From positions 17,121 to 81,120 of IMG/VR virus record IMGVR_UViG_3300045988_138926: DNA of 64,000 nt; one strand, written 5' to 3'. Within the stretch, counting starts at the first letter, position 1. The number at the start of each line of letters is the position of its first letter. The translations under genes were made by a program, and so were the position numbers. Positions 37,312 to 64,000 of this stretch are shown in pieces. The notes under the pieces were generated by a model. The model was not told the origin of the DNA. It saw nothing but the letters and a program-made list of their open reading frames with translations, and did not search any database. Origin of the DNA: a virus.

Positions 37312-37523
37312 ATAAGTCAGGATTTCTCCTGTAAGTACCCATCGCCAATGTTATAAGAGGTTTTATATAATGGCAACACTGTTTCGTCAAATACACTACT
37401 CCTGTTTAATCACCATCCTTAGAGCTACGGACTTGGGTAAACATCCGTAGGTAACTATCTATTCTCAAATAACGTAGCCTTCGTTTCAAGGCTTAGGCTA
37501 ATAACCCGATCTCTGAAAGAGAT
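37312..37523 (-). ncRNA. orphan IscB-type omega-RNA (HEARO)-like structured RNA, paralog of the element upstream of iscB
   Basis: About 75 percent identical over roughly 210 nt to 49176-49387 in the same orientation. Differences are compensatory in at least three stems: cagga/tcctg vs cagag/ctctg, agcctt/aaggct vs agtgtt/aacact, and atctct/agagat vs aatagc/gctatt. Strand is inferred from the iscB copy. Confidence 0.55.
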
Positions 37524-37750
37524 GTATTAAACTTTTATAATAGAATTATATTAGTTTAATACTATTTGGGGTTATAACACTGATCATAATGCTTGGTCAG
37601 TTCTTCTGGTTCTAAATCTTGTCCAAAATCCATGTTAAAAATATCGTAATTAGTAAAGCACTAAAAATCACTATTCCTGCTGGCATGAAATCTATAAATG
37701 CTGCTTTTGCTTCTTCAATTAGGCCCAAGTGTAACCTTGGGCCATTGTAT

Positions 37751-49175: not shown

Positions 49176-49387
49176 ACATAAGTCAGAGTGAAACTCTGTT
49201 AGTACCCATCGCCAATGTTATTTAAGGTTTTTTTGTAAGCAACACTGTTCCTGAATACCAGAACTGTTTAATCACTTACCTTAGAGCTACAGACTTGGGC
49301 AAACATCCGCAAGTAACTATCTATTCTTAAATAACGTAGTGTTTGTTTCAACACTTAGGCTAATAATCGGAATAGCTTTTGGCTATT
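49176..49387 (-). ncRNA. omega-RNA (HEARO-type) scaffold upstream of iscB
   Basis: Lies 29 nt upstream of the iscB start. Hairpin-rich (cagag-tgaaa-ctctg; agtgtt-tgtttc-aacact; aatagc-ttttg-gctatt). Has a covarying paralog at 37312-37523. The guide segment is expected just beyond 49387. Confidence 0.6.
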
Positions 49388-49600
49388 ATGCATAATACAA
49401 TACAAATTGGTTATGATTTGTATGAGTTATGTATTATTCTCGATTATTCGTAGCTACGAAATACTTACACCCCTCTAAGTGCGTCAGGGCTTCAATTATA
49501 GCATTCTTTATCTCTTTTTCTTCCATTATGTTTGTTTTTTTTGGACAAAGATATGTCTTTTGATAATAAAAAAGATTCAAAATGATTTAATTTAGCTTAA

Positions 49601-50044: not shown

Positions 50045-51260
50045 CTCAGTTGCACCTTCTACGGTTCTAAAACCGATGCCGATATCTTTTAACTTGACAC
50101 ACTCCCATCGCTAAAGCAAATGGGATTCTTGGATACAAACGCAAGAAACCCCGATATTAATATCGCTGGAATTACTCTTGCTCTCCAATTCGGAAATGCC
50201 CTTCCGAAGTATATTACGGGCTGCAAGAACATCACGGTCGTTAACCGCGCCGCACGACGGGCATACCCACGTGCGGTCGCGTAACGACAGTCCTTTATTA
50301 ATGCAGCCACATTCACAAGTTTTGGAAGAAGGATACCATTTGTCAATCTTGTGTATCGTTACTCCATACTTTGAAGCAACGTACGTAAGTTTATCAATAA
50401 AAGAAGAATGACTAAGATCGGAAACTTTCTTTCCCCACAAACGTCTCATTCCTTCAATGTTTAGATCTTCAATAAAAATATAATCATATTGTTTACACAA
50501 CTGGTGTGCTAATCCCCATTGAAAGTCTGATCGAAGATCGTTTATTTTACGATACGCTTGTTGGAGTTCAAACAGTCTCCTTCTTCTATTGTTGGATCCT
50601 TTCTTTGCATTAGAAAGCTGTTTGTTTAGTTTTCTAATCTTGTTTTGATATTGTTTGAAGAATAGAGGAGAATCAATTTTGTTACCATCGCTTTTAGTTA
50701 GATAAGTTTTCAGCCCAAAATCCAACCCTATAGATGCACCATCATGTGTCTTTCTATAAGAGTTTATAAGATTATGATCTGTAATAATTATCAGGCTATA
50801 TCGATAGCATGTTTCTCTAACTATTCTAATTTGTTTAACATTACCTTCGTAGACTCTACTGTATGAAAATCTAAATCGTTTCTTTCCTTTATTGATTGTT
50901 AGACAATTACCATTCAGGGTAAACCCACCTTGTTTGAATACAAAAGAATTGAATTTCTCCGGTGATTTAAACTTAGGAGGTCGTTTAGCCAACTTCTTAA
51001 AGAAACGATTATAAGATTCATCAAGACGTTCAAGTATTTCTTGCACTGTTTGGGAATGAAGAAGATTTCTTTTTATCCTTTTAGCAAAATGCTTCTTCAT
51101 CTTACCAATTGATATATATTTTCCAAACAGTTTGTAGTATCTACGTTGTAGAGCTAACGCATGATTCCATACAAAACAACATTCTCGAAGCATTTTGTCC
51201 AGATACTTCGTTTTCTTGGAATGATAGATGTTGTATTTGTATGAAATCATTTTTTTATTT
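49950..51260 (-). mobile_element. IS200/605-family TnpB-only element; right end and omega-RNA expected within about 49950-50250; boundaries approximate
   Basis: Inferred from TnpB, whose omega-RNA derives from the ORF 3' end plus right end. No TnpA ORF nearby. Confidence 0.4.
50111..51250 (-). CDS. tnpB: TnpB, RNA-guided RuvC nuclease of the IS200/IS605 family, 379 aa
   Basis: RuvC-I ASIGLDFGLKTY. RuvC-II IFIEDLNIEGM. Zinc finger CECGC...CPSCG. RuvC-III NDRDVLAARNI. The 3' part is locally GC-rich relative to the rest of the window. Confidence 0.85.
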   Translation of the reverse strand: MISYKYNIYHSKKTKYLDKMLRECCFVWNHALALQRRYYKLFGKYISIGKMKKHFAKRIKRNLLHSQTVQEILERLDESYNRFFKKLAKRPPKFKSPEKFNSFVFKQGGFTLNGNCLTINKGKKRFRFSYSRVYEGNVKQIRIVRETCYRYSLIIITDHNLINSYRKTHDGASIGLDFGLKTYLTKSDGNKIDSPLFFKQYQNKIRKLNKQLSNAKKGSNNRRRRLFELQQAYRKINDLRSDFQWGLAHQLCKQYDYIFIEDLNIEGMRRLWGKKVSDLSHSSFIDKLTYVASKYGVTIHKIDKWYPSSKTCECGCINKGLSLRDRTWVCPSCGAVNDRDVLAARNILRKGISELESKSNSSDINIGVSCVCIQESHLL

Positions 51261-53704: not shown

Positions 53705-54507
53705 TCATTTGTTTCGCTTATAAAATTAACAACATTCTTTAGATACCCTTCTGTCATCTCTATGAAATTAACACAATCTAATTTGCTTAATTTGTAAATC
53801 AATGCCGGATTGTGTATTATGGCTATAATTTGTGTTTGTGGTTTATGAAATGACAATACATTGTAAATCTGCATTATGTTGTCAATATCAAGATTCCTGT
53901 CTGGCTCATCCATGAGAACCGTGTATTCAAAACTGCTTTCTGTTAATGTTATGCGGTTTCTTTTATAATACTTCAACAGGTTATCAATTCTTTTAATCCA
54001 AAACGCATTTGATTTTTTCTTGTATTCTACAAGATCTTGTATTGGAAATGTATAATCCTTTTGACCGAACATTAAATTGAAAAGTGATTCCAATGATAAC
54101 ACCACTTTTTCTCCATAAGATTTTTGAATGCTATTCACATACAAATCGAAATTGCTGATGTTTTTTGATACACTATCTCGATTTGTCTCCGTTGACGGCA
54201 ATAAACGGAATACTTTCCCTGCATAATCGGATGATATATCAATCCCATCAAAAACCTTATCATCGTCATCAAATATAGGTGGAAAATCCAGTGCCTCGGT
54301 CGGCATTTCAGAGCACATGGATTTCTCGCATAACGCATACATTGATATGATGTTAAGCAAAGTTGATTTTCCACTACCGTTTTTACCTATAATTACATTC
54401 ACTCCTGACTTGAAAATAAATTCTCTGCCATTTTCAAATGCTTCTATATCCGAAACATATTCAAATGGAGTTTTTGTATTGTCTTTTATTTTTACTGATG
54501 TTATCAT
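53701..54507 (-). CDS. P-loop ATPase, ABC/AAA_21-like (SMC/RecF/OLD N-domain type), 268 aa
   Basis: Walker A VIIGKNGSGKSTLLNII. Walker B VLMDEPDRNLD. Confidence 0.6.
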   Translation of the reverse strand: MITSVKIKDNTKTPFEYVSDIEAFENGREFIFKSGVNVIIGKNGSGKSTLLNIISMYALCEKSMCSEMPTEALDFPPIFDDDDKVFDGIDISSDYAGKVFRLLPSTETNRDSVSKNISNFDLYVNSIQKSYGEKVVLSLESLFNLMFGQKDYTFPIQDLVEYKKKSNAFWIKRIDNLLKYYKRNRITLTESSFEYTVLMDEPDRNLDIDNIMQIYNVLSFHKPQTQIIAIIHNPALIYKLSKLDCVNFIEMTEGYLKNVVNFISETNE

Positions 54508-54550
54508 ATGTAATCCTTTTTAAAAATCAATTACCGCCCGAACCCTGTTA

Positions 54551-54796
54551 CTATTGTACTTGTTGCTGTAGTTCGTGTAGCCACTGGAGAAGCTCACGTA
54601 CCATGCGTTGCTCTGGCTGCCCCGTCCACTCCCTGTACCCTACATTAAAACCAATAGGATCATACCTTTTGATCATAGTGCCATAATTCTCTCTACCGCA
54701 ATATCTGTTCCTTCCTCCAATAATCCATGCTTCATCGTCTCTATCTGGAGATATGGAGTTAAGATATTTTTCATAATCCTTTCTACTCTTTCCCAT
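54551..54796 (-). CDS. hypothetical protein, 81 aa
   Basis: ORF. Confidence 0.4.
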   Translation of the reverse strand: MGKSRKDYEKYLNSISPDRDDEAWIIGGRNRYCGRENYGTMIKRYDPIGFNVGYREWTGQPEQRMVRELLQWLHELQQQVQ

Positions 54797-55151
54797 CTTT
54801 GTCTTGATTTAAGCAATAGTTAATAAAATAAGCAACCTGTTCATTTTCCCCTGGATTATTATAATCATAAAAAGTCATATCAGTATAATCCAGCATGACT
54901 ACACGAAAATCGTTTTTTTTGACATACACTTCCGTTAAATACATAGGATTTTCATCAATTTCTATTATCACCGGAAACTGATCATCAAAGTCAAATACAT
55001 CATTAGTTTCTTTAAATTCTTTAAACCCTTTAAATTTTAGCCTTATAATTCCATTGTTTTCTGCTAATGCTTCTCTGATGTACTCTAATCTTTTTGCATT
55101 CAGACTGGCCTCTGCTTCTTCTATTTCTTTATACAACTTATTTAAATCCAT
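54783..55151 (-). CDS. hypothetical protein, 122 aa
   Basis: ORF. Confidence 0.5.
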   Translation of the reverse strand: MDLNKLYKEIEEAEASLNAKRLEYIREALAENNGIIRLKFKGFKEFKETNDVFDFDDQFPVIIEIDENPMYLTEVYVKKNDFRVVMLDYTDMTFYDYNNPGENEQVAYFINYCLNQDKDGKE

Positions 55152-55653
55152 ATTCCACTATATTTATGTTATCGAATTTTTCTTTTATAATATCCAAGGC
55201 GCGGCACTCGTTTGTTATCATGGCATACTTACCTGGCTTCATTCTCCACAAATTAAAATACCTTGTCACATTCATAGTGGCATTAAATAATGATATTTCA
55301 TATTTTGTGTTTCCATTTTTATCACGTCCTATGTTTTTAACATAACATATGTCTGGCTCGTATTTGAAATAATTTAAAAGCCTATACCAGCCTTTTCCCT
55401 GACATGTCTCAAAATTCCATTTTCCAACAAGCCTTCTGTATCCTCTTACTGGTATTTTCACTATTTCCCTTGGCACGATTTCAATATACTTTCCTTCTCC
55501 GATTGGTATAGTCATATTACCTGCCTCTTCCGTGCAAAAGTATTCTATTTCAGATGCCATGTCTTTATATACATAGAACCGGTATAGGTTCCCGTCAGGG
55601 TCTACCCGATCCATGTAATATAATATCACTTTGTCTACTTTTATCGTTTTCAT
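55138..55653 (-). CDS. hypothetical protein, 171 aa
   Basis: ORF. Confidence 0.5.
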   Translation of the reverse strand: MKTIKVDKVILYYMDRVDPDGNLYRFYVYKDMASEIEYFCTEEAGNMTIPIGEGKYIEIVPREIVKIPVRGYRRLVGKWNFETCQGKGWYRLLNYFKYEPDICYVKNIGRDKNGNTKYEISLFNATMNVTRYFNLWRMKPGKYAMITNECRALDIIKEKFDNINIVEYGFK

Positions 55654-58853: not shown

Positions 58854-59104
58854 AACTTTTTGTATTTACGTACATTTTTCTTGCCATAGAATCTACACAT
58901 GGCACGAATCTGACTATAAAATACTTTTGTCCTCCTGGCCTCAAAGTATTTAAACATTTCTTCATTCTTTGTTTCCCACACGTAATCCGTTTGGGAACTC
59001 ATGTGATTTTTGTCCTTGCGCGAATAATGGTAATATGATACCACAACACGTTTCGCACCATTCTTTACAGGTACGATATTCACATCTATGTTATTATCTG
59101 TCAT
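58850..59104 (-). CDS. hypothetical protein, 84 aa
   Basis: ORF. Confidence 0.4.
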   Translation of the reverse strand: MTDNNIDVNIVPVKNGAKRVVVSYYHYSRKDKNHMSSQTDYVWETKNEEMFKYFEARRTKVFYSQIRAMCRFYGKKNVRKYKKL

Positions 59105-59223
59105 ATTATTATTGTTTTATGCATTATACAAATACAAAGAGCGCATACCTTCACAGGCCGGCGCTCCTTTCAATAAAAATGAAAAAACTAATATTACATA
59201 AACATATTGTTTTCTGCTCTTTA

Positions 59224-59457
59224 TTACAATACTTTTGTTCCGCAATTATTATATCTTCCATGCTCTTTTTTCGTATCATTCAAAATTTCAAAAACCATCT
59301 TCTTATGATCTTTGTTTGGCAACTTGTCTTTAATAGCCGATATTACACCAGCTATAGACGTAAAGCCTGAATCCGTTATTGAACATAGTAATAATCCCCT
59401 GTCATCGCTGGTGCTTATCGCTGACGCCTTTATAATATCATTCTTATATATTCTCAT
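59224..59457 (-). CDS. hypothetical protein, 77 aa
   Basis: ORF. Confidence 0.35.
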   Translation of the reverse strand: MRIYKNDIIKASAISTSDDRGLLLCSITDSGFTSIAGVISAIKDKLPNKDHKKMVFEILNDTKKEHGRYNNCGTKVL

Positions 59458-59477
59458 AACTTTTTTGTTTTATTGTT

Positions 59478-59572
59478 TGTGAGATGCCCAGAATCGAACC
59501 AGGACCGGTACATACATGCCGGCACGCCGCGTCATCCCCCTATATGATACAGAAATAGGCATGCCTATCCTC
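59478..59572 (-). tRNA. tRNA-like element with a canonical T-arm and 3' acceptor strand (GGTTCGATTCT...), non-canonical or long 5' part; possible divergent or type II tRNA, or an intron-containing one
   Basis: Minus-strand RNA ends ...CCUGGUUCGAUUCUGGGCAUCUCAC. A D-arm-like UCAU-AUAGGGGG-AUGA is present. The 7-bp acceptor pairing is imperfect when folded by hand. Confidence 0.3.
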
Positions 59573-59633
59573 ACGAACCGACATGCCAAAACCCAAAACT
59601 TAATTTGATGAATAAAATAGATTAACAAAAATA

Positions 59634-59948
59634 CTATTCTAATTCTTTTATAATATCTTTCACAATATTCAGCCTTACCTCCTTCGTTTCTGGACTAAGA
59701 CAACCAAACCACCCATAAAACGTTCTTGTTTCCTCTGGTTCTGTGGCCATACTTATCTTCTCTTCCAATTCCGGGAAATATATTCTTACCATTTCGTCTG
59801 AACGAAACTCATAGATATTTTTATGTGTTTTGAAATACATAAACACTACATTTCTTAACGCAACACATATATATTCCCCATCCTCTAACCTATCAATCAT
59901 CTCATATACCTTTTCCCATATGAATAATCGCTCTTCTTTTGTAAACAT
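59634..59948 (-). CDS. hypothetical protein, 104 aa
   Basis: ORF. Confidence 0.5.
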   Translation of the reverse strand: MFTKEERLFIWEKVYEMIDRLEDGEYICVALRNVVFMYFKTHKNIYEFRSDEMVRIYFPELEEKISMATEPEETRTFYGWFGCLSPETKEVRLNIVKDIIKELE

Positions 59949-59956
59949 ATCCTTCT

Positions 59957-60304
59957 TTATTTTTGTGGTATTATTTGACTGTATGCAGACTTTTCCATGT
60001 ACACAACACTATGCTCCTGTCCAAGTATTTTCTTTGCTGCCTCTTTCTTTATCGCACAATATCTCCCTGTACGATACGGATTCTTTTGATCTGATCCATC
60101 CTCGACTTCGATAATAAAACAGCCTCCGTCATCTATTATCTTTTTGCAATTGTCACATACTCCTCCCGTGCATATATGATGCGGCGCCTGACCTTTGATG
60201 TTATTCCCTAATAAAGCAATCCCCATCTCTTCTCCACATATCATGCAGACTTCTATAGACGGATTCAATCCGTGTTCTGGATGTAATGTAATACTGTCTT
60301 TCAT
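59957..60304 (-). CDS. zinc-ribbon protein, 115 aa
   Basis: CMICGEE...HHICTGGVCDNCKK. Confidence 0.5.
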   Translation of the reverse strand: MKDSITLHPEHGLNPSIEVCMICGEEMGIALLGNNIKGQAPHHICTGGVCDNCKKIIDDGGCFIIEVEDGSDQKNPYRTGRYCAIKKEAAKKILGQEHSVVYMEKSAYSQIIPQK

Positions 60305-60333
60305 TTTCTTTCCTCCTTTGTTTTTAATATTGT

Positions 60334-60404
60334 GTGAGATCGCCGGAATCGAACCGACCTACCGCACCATGAATCCCATAAAGCAAATGCTCCGATCTTC
60401 GCAG
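60334..60404 (-). tRNA. tRNA-like element (T-arm GGUCGGUUCGAUUCCGGC plus acceptor 3' strand); 5' half non-canonical
   Basis: Ends ...GGUUCGAUUCCGGCGAUCUCAC. The flank TATTGTGTGAGATCGCC parallels element 1. Confidence 0.3.
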
Positions 60405-60646
60405 ACGGGAGCATTCTGTCTAAAGCATAAGAAAATTAATGAAGAAAATCTTCCTCACTTACGCCATAGCATCTAAAATAGCTATCAACACTATTTCTAT
60501 GACAAGCATAATAGAGAATGTCTTAAATATCTTTTTCATATCTCCTCCTTTTTTATCTGTTCTTTTCACGTTCCACAATAAACTGTTCCGGCTCTGCTCC
60601 GACCTACGTTCCACCTACAACCGCAGGCCTTAGCCCAAGGCGCCGC

Positions 60647-60907
60647 CTACTCCCCCTCTATGGCAGCCTGTTCGTACCTACAACACCAGTCTCCATCTAT
60701 ACAACTATTGCTATGCGATAACAAACATTTATCCTTATAACAATCATAAAAAATACATCTCTCACAACTGTAATCCCTAACATCTACACAGCTAACTACC
60801 TTAGCATATACTATACCATCACTGCCTTCTATTCCTTTTACCCCAAAAATAGAACCTTCTCCCTCCTTACTCAAATCTAAGTCAGGCGCAAAGTCATATA
60901 CGTTCAT
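60647..60907 (-). CDS. Cys-rich small protein, 86 aa, first gene of the minus-strand array
   Basis: Multiple Cys. ORF at the edge of a 2-kb non-coding region. Confidence 0.45.
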   Translation of the reverse strand: MNVYDFAPDLDLSKEGEGSIFGVKGIEGSDGIVYAKVVSCVDVRDYSCERCIFYDCYKDKCLLSHSNSCIDGDWCCRYEQAAIEGE

Positions 60908-60984
60908 GTTGTTTATGTTTTAATTGTTATACATTCCGATTACTACTAATCTATAGAATATAGGTTTCAACTCTCAACCTATTG

Positions 60985-61146
60985 AATTTTGTAGAATAAA
61001 CTCACATTATGCCGTTTTAAAGCACTGTAAGTCTTAATTTTGTAGGAAAACCCTACATAATGCTGTTTTAAAACGCTGATCTGTTGAATGTTGTTGGAAA
61101 ACCCTACATAATGCTGTTTTAAAACGCTGATCTGTTGAATGTTGTC
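60985..61146. repeat. tandem direct repeats, about 51-bp unit, 2 perfect plus 1 degenerate copy
   Basis: ggaaaaccctacataatgctgttttaaaacgctgatctgttgaatgttgtt at 61045-61095 and 61096-61146. A degenerate copy lies at about 60985-61035. Confidence 0.8.
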
Positions 61147-61147
61147 T

Positions 61148-61190
61148 GTTGAATTTTGTTGGAAGGAAGTTGAATTTTGTTGGAAGGAAG
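61148..61190. repeat. tandem 21-22 bp repeat x2 (gttgaattttgttggaaggaa), followed by a polypyrimidine tract 61195-61230
   Basis: Seen directly. The motif TTGAATTTTGT also occurs at 60981 and 61033. Confidence 0.8.
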
Positions 61191-61923
61191 TGCCCTCCCT
61201 CTCCCTCTCCCCAACCCCGGCTGATCCTCCGACTTTCTGCATAGAAACTGCGCTCTCGGCCTCACTACAGGCATACGGAGAGCGCTACAAGCTTATACTA
61301 TGGCATGGGATATGGGGTGTTTAGAGATAATATCATTCCATAGAGAGAATAGAGAGCCTTCAGCCCACGCCCTACCGTCTGCTCCTCCTATCAAGATAGA
61401 TATTCAAACCTATAATCAAAGCCAAAAACAAAAAGCAAAAGACCATTACAACATTATACTGATCCGCTCCGTACTCCAACATAGAACGAATACCAACCGA
61501 CAGAAAATAAAGATCAGCTACTAATAAAAACCACCACATAAAACAAAAAAAATACAATAAGTATGTCCGAAAATACGGGTATTATAAAGCATAACTAATT
61601 GATAATCAAGCATACCTTATTTTTAAGAAAAATACAATAAGCCCAATTTTCAATCCATAGAGACGAAAAAGGCGGCATCCGACACCATATTTTGGGTCAG
61701 AAAACCGCCTACAGTTTCGTTTTAGACCAATTTTAACGACAATATATAGACAAAATACCGGCATTATATCCAAACAGCCTTATTTTTGTTTCAATTTGAA
61801 CCAATATACGCATTCCTACCTTGTTTGTCGTCGTGTTCACTCTCAGAATATCCTACCCGTAAATAGAAAGAGTAGGATACAAAAATAGGGCTGCTCCGAT
61901 ATTCGAAACAACCCTATTCCTAT

Positions 61924-62130
61924 TTAAATACTGTTTATATTTTCCTTAACGTACGTTCTTGACGTATGAACTTTACGCTTGCACTTTTCTTTTCCGGTAT
62001 CGGAATGATACGCCTCTTTGAGATCACGATACAACATAAATTCACGATACGCTCTTTTCCGCTTTTCTTTGGCTTCTTTCCTGGACAGACCGCGAACATC
62101 TACCATGTAAGATTTAAATTTCCTTTCCAT
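61924..62130 (-). CDS. small basic ORF, 68 aa, in a gene-poor region; weak
   Basis: Lys/Arg-rich ORF. Confidence 0.25.
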   Translation of the reverse strand: MERKFKSYMVDVRGLSRKEAKEKRKRAYREFMLYRDLKEAYHSDTGKEKCKRKVHTSRTYVKENINSI

Positions 62131-62346
62131 TTTCTTTATGCTTTAATTATGATTAACCCCAGCGGTTAAGTGCTTCAATATAGAAACCCTCCGCCTCTTT
62201 GTACTCACTTTCGCTTAATGTTTCCACTGTATCTATGTAGTTACGCAATGTTATTTTTACGCAACTGTTTTTAGATTTATTGAACGCTTCAGTTAAAGCG
62301 TTAATCATTGCTTTCTTTTCCATGCTATTATATTATTTATAATTTA

Positions 62347-62410
62347 GAGGTTGCTCTGGAATCGAACCAGACACGCATTCCTATTCTATACGAATTTTAT
62401 GCTACAACCA
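62347..62410 (-). tRNA. short tRNA-like element (perfect T-arm UCUGG-UUCGAUU-CCAGA, acceptor GGUUG/CAACC); only about 63 nt, D-arm not evident
   Basis: Minus-strand RNA UGGUUGUAGCAUAAAAUUCGUAUAGAAUAGGAAUGCGUGUCUGGUUCGAUUCCAGAGCAACCUC. Confidence 0.3.
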
Positions 62411-62880
62411 ACAGCCCGTAATTAGTACGTAGTTCTTGTGTACAGGCCCGTACTATGTTGTTATTATATTTTCCGTCTGCTACACTATTTCGCCACACAT
62501 AACGGCATAGTGTCCTTGCGTTTTGATACGACACGTCCCTACATGGTAGGCTACATGCTTGTACCCTGTAATTTAATCTACAGCCTTGTTCTATTTTTTC
62601 GTGTAAGCAAGTAAGACACGTTTCGATCTGGAGATAAACCTCGTACAACGGTATGTTTTCCAAACTGTACTAACATACCTAACATAAACCACACTTATTT
62701 AGTGCAGTTCATGCAGCAATACCGTATTTTTAATTGCCAACGGCTTCGATACCGGTATATCTATCTCCAATATGTAAAATAACTCTCTGTTTTGTCAGCT
62801 TCAGTCTAAAGCATACGCGGGACGTGCACCCACTGACAACGGCGTACAGACGCGTTAAGGTACGCGCCCAACCTTGTTTT

Positions 62881-63420
62881 TCACTGCTGATTGCTTTCGT
62901 GTGCTAAATACTCAGATACACACTTTGCAACGGTACGAATAGAATAAGATTTGATCTTAACGGCTACATAAGTAGATTTATATTCGTCCGTCTCTTTAAC
63001 GATCCATTTTGCACTACTTTTCGTTTCCAACGTTTCCGCGGTTGCAAATCCGAAAGGCTTATACTCACCGCCATAAACTACATTATCGGAGCACCAATCA
63101 GCTGCTTTCGCCTCAATTCCTTTCTCTTTGTCTACTTTGTTATCCTTATATACTTTAGAGTATAGGGAAAACTTAATAAAGGTGTCGCCGACTTTAGGTA
63201 ACATTTGGCTACATACAGCAACTAAACGTTTTTTGTCTTTGGCGAGTGCTGCCACCTTCACCGCGTATTCTGCCGGTATTTCCAACGCTTTACATACCGC
63301 CTTGAGGTCTGCACAATTTGCAAATAAAGCATTGTACAACTTTACTGCACCTACTAAATTCGAGGCATTCTCTTTGATAACAGCGTTTTGCAGCTTGTTA
63401 ACGTTCTTCTTCGTAATCAT
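62881..63420 (-). CDS. hypothetical protein, 179 aa
   Basis: ORF with Lys/Ala-rich composition. Isolated gene upstream of a non-coding terminal region. Confidence 0.55.
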   Translation of the reverse strand: MITKKNVNKLQNAVIKENASNLVGAVKLYNALFANCADLKAVCKALEIPAEYAVKVAALAKDKKRLVAVCSQMLPKVGDTFIKFSLYSKVYKDNKVDKEKGIEAKAADWCSDNVVYGGEYKPFGFATAETLETKSSAKWIVKETDEYKSTYVAVKIKSYSIRTVAKCVSEYLAHESNQQ

Positions 63421-63649
63421 AACTCAATATATTTTAATTGTTAAACAAATGATATTCAATTTAATAGCCCACAACGCAGGCGATTAACAGATATAGATAT
63501 AGTTAGCCCAACGGGTACACTATATAGGTTTATCATGTCAACTATGTGCTATCGCTTTAACACATTGCAAATATACTACATTTATCAATACTACAAATAT
63601 ATATGCTATCTTTTTTTTGTTAACTTGTATTAATTTCGATTATATTATC

Positions 63650-63796
63650 TGATTATCAGCAAGTTATAAAACGAACGAGAGCAGTATTATACGCGTACAT
63701 TAATATGTAGAATATATGCTTATTTAAGTTGCTTATAATCAATAGGTTATAATAATACATTGATTATCAATAATTTAAATAAGTGATTGATAATCA
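63650..63796. promoter_or_regulatory. three copies of the 9-bp palindrome TGATNATCA (63650, 63761, 63788; a fourth at 61600), candidate operator or initiator sites
   Basis: Seen directly. Two copies extend to a similar 16-mer, TGATTATCAGCAAGTT and TGATAATCAGCGAGTT. Confidence 0.4.
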
Positions 63797-63818
63797 GCGA
63801 GTTTTTAGGTTTGAGGTA

Positions 63819-63875
63819 AAAACGCGTTTCCGGTTTTCCAGCGAAGGGGGTGTGGGGAAGAAAACGCGTTTCGGG
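63819..63875. repeat. two copies of the palindrome AAACGCGTTT within 15-bp repeats (AAAACGCGTTTCCGG and AAAACGCGTTTCGGG), 42 bp apart, flanked by G-rich and then C-rich tracts
   Basis: Seen directly. Confidence 0.7.
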
Positions 63876-63907
63876 GGCGGGAGGTTCGTGATAGGTACCC
63901 CCTCTCT

Positions 63908-64000
63908 CCCATCACATAAACATTTCACCATTCCTCTCCCTCATCACATAAACATTTTTCATATCCCTCATCACATAAACATTTTTCATATCCCTCATCA
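63908..64000. repeat. 27-bp tandem direct repeat array (ccctcatcacataaacatttttcatat), at least 3.3 copies, truncated by the window end
   Basis: Copies at 63938, 63965 and 63992, plus a degenerate copy at 63908. No spacers, so not CRISPR. Confidence 0.8.

What the first reader, a model, noticed from the sequence alone, without database searches (positions are those of the whole stretch)
59478..62410. Three tRNA-like elements with textbook T-arms but aberrant 5' halves
On the minus strand there are three segments ending in GGTTCGATTC[C/T] T-loop/T-stem plus a 7-nt acceptor 3' strand, at 59478, 60334 and 62347. Their flanks are similar (TATTGTKTGTGAGATSSCC).

By hand folding none gives a standard cloverleaf. 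Element 1 is about 95 nt and has a recognisable D-arm but a mismatched acceptor. Elements 2 and 3 are only about 65-70 nt, with 5-bp acceptor complementarity and no clear D-arm.

They could be genuine divergent or intron-containing phage tRNAs, including suppressors. They could be tRNA-derived fragments, for example decoys against host anticodon nucleases or att-like 3' halves. They could also be a new family of tRNA-like structured RNAs.
Basis: seen in the sequence. Interest (0 to 1): 0.5.

Follow-up and report, generated by a model that had tools for sequence, protein, structure and literature searches.

The report
tRNA "top-half" mimics between phage genes
Three conserved RNA elements in a crAss-like gut phage copy only the upper half of a tRNA (acceptor stem plus T arm, no anticodon), sit between small genes, and most likely act as cutting signals for the host's tRNA-processing enzymes rather than as working tRNAs.

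Summary
Three exact GGTTCGATTC T-loop motifs lie on the minus strand (0.12 expected by chance). Each forms a 5-bp T stem followed directly by the 3' strand of a 6-7 bp acceptor-like helix.

They are not tRNAs. ARAGORN and Rfam find nothing, even at permissive settings, and there is no D arm or anticodon arm. They are three paralogous "top-half" tRNA mimics of 45-62 nt.

- **Position:** each lies on the sense strand in an intergenic gap, 21-29 nt upstream of a start codon.
- **Upstream structure:** each follows a conserved hairpin, or for element 3 a pseudoknot, by 4-18 nt.
- **Comparative evidence:** several hundred related human-gut phage contigs show compensatory base changes (9 of 32 pairs in element 3) and a strong G·U over A·C bias. 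This means selection on an RNA fold of the sense strand.
- **Origin:** element 3 resembles the phage's own tRNA-Cys.

Best explanation, inferred and not shown: they are cis signals for RNase P and RNase Z that cut a polycistronic transcript, like plant mitochondrial t-elements or MALAT1 mascRNA. Rivals are trans-acting decoy RNAs, recombination or cassette-boundary sites, and decaying pseudogenes.

I found no Rfam family or paper describing them. I rate this a new variant of a known kind, of moderate interest.

The parts
59479..59539 (-). Element 1 core (61 nt). Acceptor 5' strand GGGGAUG at 59539-59533. Linker ACGCGGCGUG. Variable-arm-like hairpin at 59522-59505. T arm CCUGG-UUCGAUU-CUGGG at 59503-59487. 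Acceptor 3' strand CAUCUCA at 59486-59480. Discriminator C at 59479. The 1:72 position is a G·A mismatch.
   Evidence: Sequence. Pair counts 95.9% paired against 22-50% for slid controls. T-stem and hairpin changes keep pairing. Acceptor pairs 3:70 and 4:69 each show three pair types. No ARAGORN or Rfam tRNA hit.
59558..59587 (-). Hairpin upstream of element 1 (GGCAUG / CAUGCC, 18-nt loop). Its loop contains GUCGGUUCG, a partial copy of the element 2 T arm. It ends 18 nt before the element 1 acceptor.
   Evidence: Sequence. Repeat D14. Pairing kept with G·U variants (the double-sided counts for this helix are inflated by two misaligned rows, L013 and L101).
60334..60378 (-). Element 2 core (45 nt). 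Acceptor 5' strand UGGGAUU at 60378-60372. A 13-nt linker CAUGGUG+6 variable nt. T arm GUCGG-UUCGAUU-CCGGC at 60358-60342. Acceptor 3' strand GAUCUCA at 60341-60335. Discriminator C at 60334. The acceptor is 7 bp including G3·U70.
   Evidence: Sequence. 99.5% of cells paired. T-stem variants GCUGG/CCGGC, GUCGG/CCGAC and GUCAG/CUGGC all pair. In L062, three changes in the 3' strand all keep pairing. Rfam sees only the 17-nt T arm.
60386..60415 (-). Hairpin upstream of element 2. It has 8+4 bp with a GCGA (GNRA-type) tetraloop and a C/C internal loop, followed by UUGCUUUA. It ends 7 nt before the element 2 acceptor.
   Evidence: Compensatory changes AAUGCUCC/GGAGCAUU <-> AGUGCUCC/GGAGCACU <-> AACGCUCC/GGAGCGUU. 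Pair 76:103 is AU 28 / GC 18, and pair 77:102 is UA 47 / CG 4.
62348..62409 (-). Element 3 core (62 nt). Acceptor 5' strand GGUUGU at 62409-62404. An interrupted hairpin GCAU-AAA-AUUC-GUAUA-GAAU-AGGA-AUGC at 62402-62375. T arm UCUGG-UUCGAUU-CCAGA at 62371-62355. Acceptor 3' strand GCAACC at 62354-62349. Discriminator U at 62348.
   Evidence: 99.9% of cells paired, and 0 of 500 shuffles reach the observed covariation. Expanded set of 65 unique sequences: double-sided covariation in the inner hairpin, T stem and acceptor pair 6 (U·G / U-A / C-G). The weak Rfam tRNA-Sec alignment has the same ends, with D and anticodon arms deleted. Similar to the phage tRNA-Cys including the trailer CUCUAAA.
62414..62454 (-). 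Pseudoknot (or two mutually exclusive hairpins) upstream of element 3. S1 is AGUACG (62454-62449) / CGUACU (62429-62424). S2 is GCCUGUA (62447-62441) / UACGGGC (62420-62414). It ends 4 nt before the element 3 acceptor.
   Evidence: Independent compensatory variants. S1: ATCACG/CGTGAT and AACACG/CGTGTT. S2: GCCCGAA/TTCGGGC, GCCCGCA/TGCGGGC and GCCCACA/TGTGGGT.
59458..59478 (-). A-rich 21-nt leader between element 1 and the ATG of the 77-aa ORF (59224-59457). The sequence up to about 59465 is conserved with element 2's leader. Beyond it, relatives carry alternative genes.
60305..60333 (-). 29-nt leader with a GGAGG ribosome-binding site between element 2 and the ATG of the 115-aa ORF (59957-60304). 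The gene-cassette boundary in relatives lies about 20 nt after the acceptor.
62324..62347 (-). 24-nt AU-rich leader between element 3 and the ATG of the 56-aa ORF (62153-62323).
60595..60690 (-). Degenerate element-1-like copy. CAUAGAGGGGGAGUAGGCGGCGCC matches element 1's CAUAGAGGGGAUGACGCGGCGUGCC. It keeps a T-stem-like hairpin GUCGG-AGCAGAG-CCGGA, but the T-loop sequence is lost. It overlaps the stop codon of the 86-aa ORF.
   Evidence: Reading, repeat D4, local alignment score 28. Weak evidence.
61788..61818 (-). Degenerate element-3-like remnant. UAGGAAUGCGUAUAUUGGUUCAAAUUGAAAC matches element 3's UAGGAAUGCGUGUCUGGUUCGAUUCCAGAGC.
   Evidence: Reading. The same remnant is present in relatives. 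Local alignment score 28. Weak evidence.

Best explanation
**What it is (shown).** The three elements are paralogous, tRNA-derived RNA structures on the sense (minus) strand. Each reproduces only the acceptor/T-arm "top half" of a tRNA: a 6-7 bp acceptor helix stacked on a canonical T arm, with a short variable insert in place of the D and anticodon arms. They cannot decode.

**How it most likely works (inferred, not shown).**
1. The elements are transcribed as part of the long leftward transcript, which also carries the family's genuine CCA-less tRNAs upstream.
2. The host's tRNA end-processing enzymes recognise them.
3. RNase P cuts at the 5' end of the acceptor. The upstream mRNA is left ending just after a stable hairpin or pseudoknot that blocks 3' exonucleases.
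4. RNase Z cuts after the discriminator, or the element stays attached as a structured 5' end. This defines the 5' end of the downstream mRNA 21-29 nt before its start codon.
5. A small 45-62 nt tRNA-like RNA may be released as a by-product and receive CCA.

The elements would therefore punctuate a polycistronic array of small accessory genes. Because the copies are similar, they also serve as break points for gene-cassette exchange.
For: **Structure, shown**
- Three exact T-loop motifs against 0.12 expected.
- A strict T-arm scan has no false positive in 150 kb.
- The T loop is TTCGATT in 119 of 122 copies from loci not selected on the motif. Across all held copies the changes fall mostly at positions 57, 59 and 60; one copy changes position 55.
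- Helices are 96-99.9% paired, against 22-50% for slid controls.
- 9 of 32 pairs in element 3 show double-sided covariation in 65 unique sequences.
- The element 2 hairpin shows compensatory changes.
- G·U variants appear in 33 pair columns against A·C in 8 (569 against 10 cells). This is expected only if the minus-strand RNA folds.

**Not coding**
- G-run length changes and a 14-nt deletion lie inside the CDS annotated over element 1.
- There is a stop codon and a frameshift in the ORF over the element 3 pseudoknot.

**Context**
- All genes here are on the minus strand. The elements lie 21-29 nt before start codons and 4-18 nt after conserved structures.
- Relatives carry co-oriented CCA-less tRNAs Met-Gln-Arg-Cys 7-9 kb upstream.
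- Element 3 resembles tRNA-Cys (score 41 against 17.8 +/- 3.4 for shuffles).

**Substrate logic, from the literature**
- A 7-bp acceptor stem is a major RNase P determinant, and a tRNA-like Y RNA is cut by RNase P and given CCA (PMC4201824).
- Plant mitochondrial t-elements were found with the same GGTTCRANYCC screen. They direct RNase P/Z cleavage at mRNA ends (PMC1920247).
- In MALAT1 a protective 3' structure sits directly upstream of a tRNA-like RNase P substrate (PMC8457004).
Against: - There are no transcript data. No RNA end has been mapped, and transcription through the upstream hairpins is assumed. The element 2 hairpin followed by UUGCUUUA could be a terminator.
- The host and its RNase P and Z are unknown.
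- The 1:72 pair is mismatched in elements 1 and 3, and no CCA is encoded.
- The whole region, ORFs included, is 88-97% identical across the family. The elements are therefore not demonstrably more conserved than their neighbours, and the covariation rests on a shallow phylogeny.
- The acceptor sequences of elements 1 and 2 are nearly invariant while the real tRNAs' acceptors covary. This could point to a sequence-specific reader rather than a purely structural one.
Confidence: 0.42

Rival explanations
1. The elements work in trans as released small RNAs. They would be tRNA top-half mimics, CCA-tailed, that soak up or redirect a tRNA-binding factor. Candidates are host defence toxins that act on tRNA acceptor ends, host tRNA enzymes, or the phage family's own RNA toolkit (Ro60-like Rsr, CCA-adding-type nucleotidyltransferase, PNK).
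For: - The relative csAssE-Sib encodes Rsr, a CCA-adding-type nucleotidyltransferase, PNK/phosphatase and an NrnA-like enzyme. It also has a weak YrlA-like RNA next to rsr.
- The acceptor sequences of elements 1 and 2 are almost invariant, as expected for a sequence-specific partner.
- Three copies of one design suggest a dosage effect.
- This reading is compatible with the processing model, since release needs RNase P and Z.
Against: - No partner has been identified.
- The window's phage lacks the nucleotidyltransferase block, yet keeps the elements.
- rsr is about 75 kb away in the relative.
- There is no anticodon loop, so they cannot be decoys for anticodon nucleases.
- I found no literature precedent for phage top-half decoys.
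Confidence: 0.2
2. The elements are DNA-level features. They would be recombination sites or cassette boundaries, with the T arm (an inverted repeat around a 7-bp core) acting like a tRNA-type att core. Alternatively they would be part of a promoter for the downstream gene. In either case the RNA fold would be incidental.
For: - In relatives, conservation stops about 20 nt after the acceptor and alternative genes follow.
- Hybrids with the element 2 5' half and the element 1 3' half, joined in the T loop, were seen three times.
- Degenerate extra copies exist.
- AT-rich -10-like hexamers lie about 18 nt after TTCGAT (reading).
- A perfect TATAAT lies at 62468-62463.
Against: - The strong G·U over A·C asymmetry and the compensatory changes are strand-specific and fit RNA, not duplex DNA or a cruciform.
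- No integrase is annotated in the relative.
- The promoter scan finds nothing at the elements.
- The shared flank motif occurs only at elements 1 and 2, not upstream of other genes.
- Recombination between repeats follows from any repeated element and does not need to be its function.
Confidence: 0.13
3. The elements are decaying pseudogenes of duplicated phage tRNA genes. They would have no function and be retained only because the region is young or recently spread.
For: - Element 3 resembles tRNA-Cys.
- Two further copies are clearly degenerate.
- The whole region is 88-97% identical in all relatives, so there has been little time for decay.
Against: - Compensatory double changes occur in six helices, including parts that are not tRNA-derived: the pseudoknot, the element 2 hairpin and the inner hairpin.
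- A·C mismatches are rare singletons while G·U variants are common.
- The T loop is intact in 119 of 122 copies, while the degenerate copies lost it.
- The clean loss of exactly the D and anticodon domains in three independent paralogues is not what random decay gives.
Confidence: 0.1
4. The elements are functional but aberrant tRNAs: armless, intron-containing or suppressor tRNAs that decode codons.
For: - Each has a canonical T arm and an acceptor-like stem.
- Element 3 keeps the U73 of tRNA-Cys in most copies.
Against: - No 7-nt anticodon loop can be drawn in any of the three.
- Their inserts are 13, 29 and 32 nt.
- ARAGORN and Rfam are negative.
- There are no distant 5' halves.
- ORFs in the region read normally in code 11.
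Confidence: 0.02

Closest known systems
Plant mitochondrial t-elements (tRNA-like processing signals; Forner et al. 2007, PMC1920247)
   Same: - Non-canonical tRNA-like folds built around a perfect GGTTCRANYCC T arm and an acceptor-like stem.
- They lie between or next to protein genes in polycistronic transcripts.
- They were found by the same motif screen.
- They are thought, and partly shown, to direct RNase P and RNase Z cuts that create mRNA 5' and 3' ends. The released element receives C/A additions.
   Different: - They occur in an organelle, not a phage.
- There is no sequence relationship.
- For the phage elements no RNA ends have been mapped.
- The phage elements are shorter (45-62 nt) and each is paired with a conserved upstream hairpin or pseudoknot.
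MALAT1 / MEN-beta 3' module: protective triple helix plus mascRNA-type tRNA-like RNA (PMC8457004)
   Same: The architecture is a stable protective structure followed immediately by a tRNA-like RNase P substrate. Cleavage leaves the upstream RNA with a protected 3' end and releases a small tRNA-like RNA.
   Different: - It is a eukaryotic nuclear lncRNA.
- mascRNA keeps a cloverleaf-like shape with an anticodon-arm analogue.
- The upstream structure is a triple helix, not a hairpin or pseudoknot.
- No Rfam mascRNA hit was found here.
YrlA-type bacterial/phage Y RNAs (Chen et al. 2014, PMC4201824; Rfam RF02553)
   Same: - Non-coding tRNA mimics with a canonical T arm.
- They are also found in phages.
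- One member is cut by RNase P and given CCA.
- The close relative of this phage encodes Ro60-like Rsr and a weak YrlA-like RNA.
   Different: - YrlA is circularly permuted (T arm, then acceptor hairpin, then D arm).
- It keeps a D arm.
- It has a Ro60-binding stem with GNCGAAN0-1G.
- It lies next to rsr.

The three elements have none of these features and give no YrlA hit.
tmRNA tRNA-like domain
   Same: An acceptor stem plus T arm without an anticodon arm. G3·U70 is present in elements 1 and 2.
   Different: - There is no tag reading frame.
- There is no tmRNA call by ARAGORN or Rfam; only the 17-nt T arm matches, at 7.9 bits.
- G3·U70 is not conserved: A3-U70 and G3-C70 variants occur.
- The discriminator is C or U, not A.
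Repeated regulatory cassettes between hypervariable early genes of T4-type phages (PeSL elements), and RNase III sites between T7 early genes (both recalled from memory, not checked here)
   Same: Repeated structured intergenic elements that flank small accessory genes. They mark cassette-exchange boundaries (PeSL) or cut a polycistronic early transcript so that hairpins protect the ends (T7).
   Different: Those elements are promoter plus stem-loop units or RNase III duplexes. They are not tRNA mimics.

Membership tests
Canonical tRNA (Rfam RF00005 / ARAGORN) | T arm with a 5-bp stem and a GTTCRANYC-type loop | tested here: met
   All three have 5/5 paired stems and the loop TTCGATT.
Canonical tRNA (Rfam RF00005 / ARAGORN) | 7-bp acceptor stem directly abutting the T stem, followed by a discriminator | tested here: inconclusive
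   Element 2 has 7 bp. Element 1 has 6 bp plus a G·A at 1:72. Element 3 has 6 bp. Variation is mostly compatible with pairing, with a few double-sided changes.
Canonical tRNA (Rfam RF00005 / ARAGORN) | D arm and an anticodon arm with a 7-nt loop | tested here: not met
   The inserts between acceptor and T arm are 13, 29 and 32 nt. The only hairpins have 4-5 nt loops.
Canonical tRNA (Rfam RF00005 / ARAGORN) | Called by tRNA predictors or reaches the family gathering score | tested here: not met
   ARAGORN finds 0 genes. There is no RF00005 hit at E<=10. The best tRNA-clan hit is tRNA-Sec at 12.2 bits against a gathering score of 47. tRNAscan-SE was not available.
tmRNA | tRNA-like domain plus tag reading frame and pseudoknots; called by ARAGORN or Rfam | tested here: not met
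   ARAGORN makes no call. Only a 17-nt T-arm fragment matches beta_tmRNA, at 7.9 bits against 84.
YrlA / bacterial Y RNA | Encoded next to rsr (Ro60 orthologue) | tested here: not met
   In csAssE-Sib rsr is at 73.1-74.7 kb, and the elements are at 148.6, 149.8 and 0.5 kb. rsr is not in the window.
YrlA / bacterial Y RNA | Permuted order of T arm, acceptor stem-loop, D arm, closed by a Ro60-binding stem with GNCGAAN0-1G | tested here: not met
   The order here is acceptor 5' strand, insert, T arm, acceptor 3' strand. There is no D arm. Only UGCGAAG occurs, in the element 2 hairpin loop. There is no RF02553 hit at the elements, although a weak one (28.5 bits) lies next to rsr in the relative.
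t-elements (tRNA-like mRNA processing signals) | GGTTCRANYCC motif outside canonical tRNAs, folding into a non-canonical tRNA-like structure with an acceptor-like stem | tested here: met
   The definition is from PMC1920247. Element 1 reads GGTTCGATTCT, with T at the last position.
t-elements (tRNA-like mRNA processing signals) | Located at the borders of protein genes within one transcription unit | tested here: met
   The elements are intergenic, on the sense strand, 21-29 nt before start codons. Co-transcription is itself inferred.
t-elements (tRNA-like mRNA processing signals) | Transcript ends coincide with element ends; cleaved by RNase P / RNase Z; non-templated C/A added | not testable with these tools
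   No transcript data are available for this uncultured phage.
Phage attP copy of a host tRNA 3' end | Identity with the 3' part of a host tRNA gene and a nearby integrase | tested here: not met
   The genome-contig scan for GGTTCGATTCNNNNNATCTCAC gave 61 hits. None is a tRNA with this end. The only true copy is a 3.9-kb phage-like contig binned with a Veillonella MAG. No integrase is annotated in csAssE-Sib. Only an exact pattern was searched.
Viral 3'-terminal tRNA-like structures (TYMV/BMV type) | Located at the 3' end of an RNA genome, with a pseudoknotted acceptor, aminoacylatable | tested here: not met
   This is a DNA phage and the position is internal and intergenic. There is no Rfam Tymo_tRNA-like or TLS hit. 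Aminoacylation is not testable.

The most novel reading that the evidence does not exclude
A widespread group of human-gut crAss-like phages uses tRNA top-half mimics as a phage version of "tRNA punctuation". Host RNase P and RNase Z cut the accessory-gene transcript at these elements. The released CCA-tailed minihelices then act in trans as decoys or sponges for tRNA-acceptor-directed host defences or enzymes. This would be a new class of phage non-coding RNA with both a cis and a trans role.
Probability: 0.12. Interest if true: 0.85.

Novelty: new variant of a known kind. Interest (0 to 1): 0.58.

Why it matters
- tRNA mimicry as an RNA-processing signal is established in organelles, mammalian lncRNAs and a herpesvirus. 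I found no description of it for tailed phages or crAss-like phages.
- These elements occur in several hundred human-gut contigs.
- They are missed by tRNA finders and by Rfam. In GenBank one of them is annotated as a protein.
- If they are RNase P/Z substrates, they show how an abundant uncultured gut phage organises expression and exchange of its accessory gene cassettes.
- They would also provide a compact natural "cut here" RNA module.
- At the least, they define a candidate new RNA family with a pseudoknot and correct a mis-annotation.

Tried and rejected
- **tRNA and tmRNA prediction:** ARAGORN and Rfam at gathering score, then at E<=10 on 4 kb, then on each element alone. All negative.
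- **Relaxed "minihelix" scan of the whole window:** 18 hits against 10-21 in shuffles. This is noise apart from the three elements, so I switched to a strict T-arm scan.
- **Single-sequence folding:** z-scores of only -0.3 to -1.5, not informative.
- **Sigma-70 promoter and terminator scan:** nothing at the elements.
- **Ala identity (G3·U70) and His-like G-1:C73:** rejected, because these positions vary among relatives.
- **Extra-conservation argument:** rejected, because the ORFs are as conserved as the elements.
- **The element 3 pseudoknot as a remnant of tRNA-Arg:** not supported by alignment, z about -1.
- **Elements 1 and 2 as derivatives of a particular phage tRNA:** only T-arm-driven similarity.
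- **Split or intron-containing tRNA with distant 5' halves:** none found.
- **Y RNA membership:** rejected.
- **Host tRNA or att origin:** no matching bacterial tRNA.
- **Pfam and PHROGs on ten neighbouring ORFs:** all orphans.
- **Link to a phage CCA-adding enzyme:** the window's phage lacks that gene block.
- **Literature search for csAssE:** nothing relevant.

Full report
**1. The observation**

GGTTCGATTC occurs exactly three times in the window, all on the minus strand, at 59491-59500, 60346-60355 and 62359-62368. Dinucleotide shuffles give 0.12 matches on average, and none of 100 reaches three. With one mismatch allowed the count is at chance level, so the signal lies in the exact motif.

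Read on the minus strand, each motif is the centre of a complete T arm:
- Element 1 (E1): CCUGG-UUCGAUU-CUGGG
- Element 2 (E2): GUCGG-UUCGAUU-CCGGC
- Element 3 (E3): UCUGG-UUCGAUU-CCAGA

Each T arm is followed directly by 6-7 nt that pair with a stretch 13-32 nt upstream of the T arm:
- E1: GGGGAUG / CAUCUCA, with G·A at 1:72
- E2: UGGGAUU / GAUCUCA, 7 bp
- E3: GGUUGU / GCAACC, 6 bp

Finding such an upstream partner by scanning is not significant on its own. A relaxed scan of the window gives 18 hits against 10-21 in shuffles. A strict T-arm scan is very specific:
- In the window it hits only these three elements.
- In the whole 150-kb genome of the closest relative it hits only five of the six real tRNAs, a YrlA-like RNA and the three elements.

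**2. They are not tRNAs**

- ARAGORN finds no tRNA or tmRNA in the window.
- Rfam at gathering score finds only two HEARO RNAs elsewhere in the window.
- At E<=10 over 59000-63000 there is no tRNA-clan hit.
- With each element searched alone under the laxest filters:
  - E1 gives nothing from the tRNA clan.
  - E2 gives only its 17-nt T arm against a tmRNA model, at 7.9 bits.
  - E3 gives a 12.2-bit tRNA-Sec alignment against a gathering score of 47. That alignment runs from 62409 to 62349, the borders I derive, with the D and anticodon arms deleted.
- The inserts between acceptor and T arm are 13, 29 and 32 nt. None holds a 7-nt loop.
- No distant 5' halves exist.
- The same tools readily find the family's true tRNAs.

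**3. Where the window comes from**

The region is 90.6% identical to phage csAssE-Sib (OR575929.1). This is a 151-kb crAss-like phage from human gut, with annotated ring and muzzle proteins. The window maps to 80.6-151.2 kb of that record and continues into its first 2.2 kb, so the record is circularly permuted.

All genes around the elements are small minus-strand ORFs with no Pfam or PHROG function.

Relatives carry a genuine, CCA-less tRNA cluster (Met, Gln, Arg, Cys) on the same strand 7-9 kb upstream.

**4. Anatomy** (minus strand; coordinates in the parts list)

Each element lies in an intergenic gap with the same layout:
- upstream gene;
- a conserved hairpin (E1, E2) or pseudoknot (E3);
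- 18, 7 or 4 nt of spacer;
- the tRNA-like core;
- 21, 29 or 24 nt of A-rich leader;
- the start codon of the next gene.

**5. Comparative evidence for an RNA fold**

Sources of related sequence:
Nearly all were from 80-150 kb gut phage contigs, usually with E2 and E1 850-1250 nt apart.
- A scan anchored on the phage PNK gene gave 74 loci not selected on the motif.
- A metagenome scan anchored on the E3 insert gave 117 loci, about 112 of them true.

Pair counts:

| Element | Cells paired | Slid controls |
|---|---|---|
| E3 | 99.9% | 35-45% |
| E2 | 99.5% | 36-48% |
| E1 | 95.9% | 22-50% |

The double-sided counts for E1's upstream hairpin are inflated by two misaligned rows (L013 and L101).

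Covariation:
- In 65 unique E3 sequences, 9 of 32 pairs show double-sided covariation. It appears in both pseudoknot helices, the inner hairpin, the T stem and acceptor pair 6 (U·G, U-A, C-G).
  - S1 variants: AGUACG/CGUACU, AUCACG/CGUGAU, AACACG/CGUGUU.
  - S2 variants: GCCUGUA/UACGGGC, GCCCGAA/UUCGGGC, GCCCACA/UGUGGGU, GCCCGCA/UGCGGGC.
- The E2 upstream hairpin shows AU/GC and UA/CG exchanges.
- E1's acceptor pairs 3:70 and 4:69 each show three pair types, while 2:71 is broken in one lineage.
- In the unselected loci the T loop is TTCGATT in 119 of 122 copies. Across all held copies the variants fall mostly at positions 57, 59 and 60, the variable positions of real T loops; one copy changes position 55.

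Strand-specific bias: G·U variants occur in 33 pair columns and A·C variants in 8, or 569 against 10 cells. Mutation should produce both equally. Only an RNA of the minus strand tolerates the first and not the second. This argues against a DNA cruciform, a plus-strand RNA or mere recency.

Limits:
- The family is shallow. ORFs and elements alike are 88-97% identical, even where PNK is only 65% identical. No claim of extra conservation can be made, and the covariation rests on few independent events.
- RNAalifold proposes a rival pairing of the E3 acceptor 5' strand with an upstream ACAAC. Changes at G66 favour the acceptor pairing, but the alternative is not excluded.

**6. Not coding**

- GenBank annotates a 52-aa protein (WOZ57404.1) over E1. 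G-run length changes (3 to 6 G) and a 14-nt deletion inside it argue against a protein.
- The ORF over the E3 pseudoknot has a premature stop in L060 and a frameshift in L051.

**7. Origin and dynamics**

- E3 with its flanks aligns to the phage tRNA-Cys region with score 41, against 17.8 +/- 3.4 for shuffles. The match includes the acceptor (GGCUUGU/ACAAGCC against GG-UUGU/GCAA-CC), U73 and the trailer CUCUAAA. Much of the score comes from the T arm.
- I could not assign E1 or E2 to a particular tRNA.
- The window also holds two degenerate copies, at 60595-60690 and 61788-61818. E1's upstream hairpin holds a partial T-arm copy.
- In relatives, conservation stops about 20 nt after the acceptor of E1 and E2, and alternative genes follow.
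- Hybrids of the E2 5' half and the E1 3' half, joined in the T loop, occur three times. The repeats therefore mark cassette boundaries and mediate deletions.

**8. Mechanism**

What is shown is a conserved sense-strand RNA fold that copies the acceptor/T-arm half of tRNA. That half is the part recognised by RNase P, RNase Z and the CCA-adding enzyme (established knowledge). [quoted passage not shown]

The position between cistrons, immediately after a stable structure, matches two known systems:
- Plant mitochondrial t-elements. These were found with the same GGTTCRANYCC screen and direct RNase P/Z cuts at mRNA ends (PMC1920247).
- The MALAT1 module, where a protective structure precedes a tRNA-like RNase P substrate (PMC8457004).

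I therefore infer that the elements punctuate a polycistronic transcript, with confidence about 0.4. Rivals are a trans-acting decoy or sponge RNA (0.2), a DNA-level recombination or promoter role (0.13), non-functional pseudogenes (0.1) and aberrant decoding tRNAs (0.02).

The relative's Ro60-like Rsr, CCA-adding-type enzyme and PNK, and a weak YrlA-like RNA beside rsr, show that this phage group invests in tRNA-like RNA biology. But the three elements fail every YrlA criterion, and the window's phage lacks the nucleotidyltransferase block.

In the crAss-like phage phi14:2, early intergenic non-coding RNAs are highly expressed and unexplained (bioRxiv 10.1101/2020.03.07.982082). This is a lead only.

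**9. Novelty**

No Rfam family, no annotation and no paper in the searchable library describes these elements. tRNA-like processing signals are a known kind. A conserved three-copy top-half mimic with a pseudoknot, in an abundant gut phage lineage, is a new variant of it.

- Host tRNA or att origin is not supported.
- The host is unknown.
- One 3.9-kb contig carrying E2 and E3 is binned with a Veillonella MAG. This is a weak hint, and may be mis-binning.

Noticed in passing
window 49198-49414 (-) and 37331-37575 (-): Two full-length HEARO RNAs (Rfam RF02033), at 110.4 and 102.7 bits against a gathering score of 83. HEARO is the HNH endonuclease-associated RNA. They suggest two insertions of that mobile element in the replication-gene block. 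The window also has a TnpB-like match to csAssE-Sib at 50092-51254.
   Followed up: no
window 60979-61190 (both strands; non-coding stretch 60980-61900): Iteron-like direct repeats: three 49-nt copies spaced 51 nt apart, three 21-nt copies and three 14-nt copies. They lie inside a roughly 900-nt stretch without convincing ORFs, between elements 3 and 2. This stretch is poorly conserved with csAssE-Sib. It could be an origin, a set of protein-binding sites or an sRNA locus.
   Followed up: partly
window 61581-61609 (-) and about 61890-61935 (-): The best sigma-70-like promoter of the region is TTGATT-17-TATAAT. After the 68-aa ORF there is a 10-bp hairpin followed by UUUUUG. Its loop contains UUUCGAAUAUCGGAGCA, which is related to the arm of the element 2 hairpin (repeat D4).
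   Followed up: no
window 60459-60539 (-): A 26-aa, very hydrophobic ORF (MKKIFKTFSIMLVIEIVLIAILDAMA) with a strong GGAGG site lies directly upstream of the element 2 hairpin. It is conserved in relatives. It could be a small membrane peptide or a toxin-like peptide.
   Followed up: no
L183 22601-22705 (csAssE-Sib 72601-72705), outside the window: A weak YrlA (Y RNA-like) hit, at 28.5 bits with E 0.006, below the gathering score of 69. It lies just upstream of tRNA-Tyr, tRNA-Lys and a Ro60-related (Rsr) gene in the close relative. It is probably a phage Rsr/Y-RNA module in a crAss-like phage.
   Followed up: partly
L001 2541-2699 (csAssE-Sib 148558-148716), equivalent to window 59470-59628: The GenBank CDS WOZ57404.1 (52 aa, hypothetical protein) lies over element 1 and its hairpin. 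1-nt G-run length changes and a 14-nt deletion among relatives indicate a spurious gene call.
   Followed up: yes
window 54496-55486 against csAssE-Sib 135.4-144.2 kb: The window's phage lacks a roughly 9-kb block of the relative. That block includes the polyA-polymerase/CCA-adding-type nucleotidyltransferase. This RNA-toolkit gene is therefore accessory within the family.
   Followed up: partly
L157 (NZ_DXLG01000138.1, 3.9-kb contig of a Veillonella sp. MAG): This is the only hit in 185,579 reference genomes that carries true copies: element 2 and element 3. It is either mis-binned phage DNA or a weak host hint. The strong GGAGG ribosome-binding sites in this region are also unusual for a phage of Bacteroidota.
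   Followed up: no
window 61842-64000 and 59463-60322 against the ends of the csAssE-Sib record: The window runs across the start and end of the linear GenBank record. This shows that the genome is circularly permuted or terminally redundant.
   Followed up: yes
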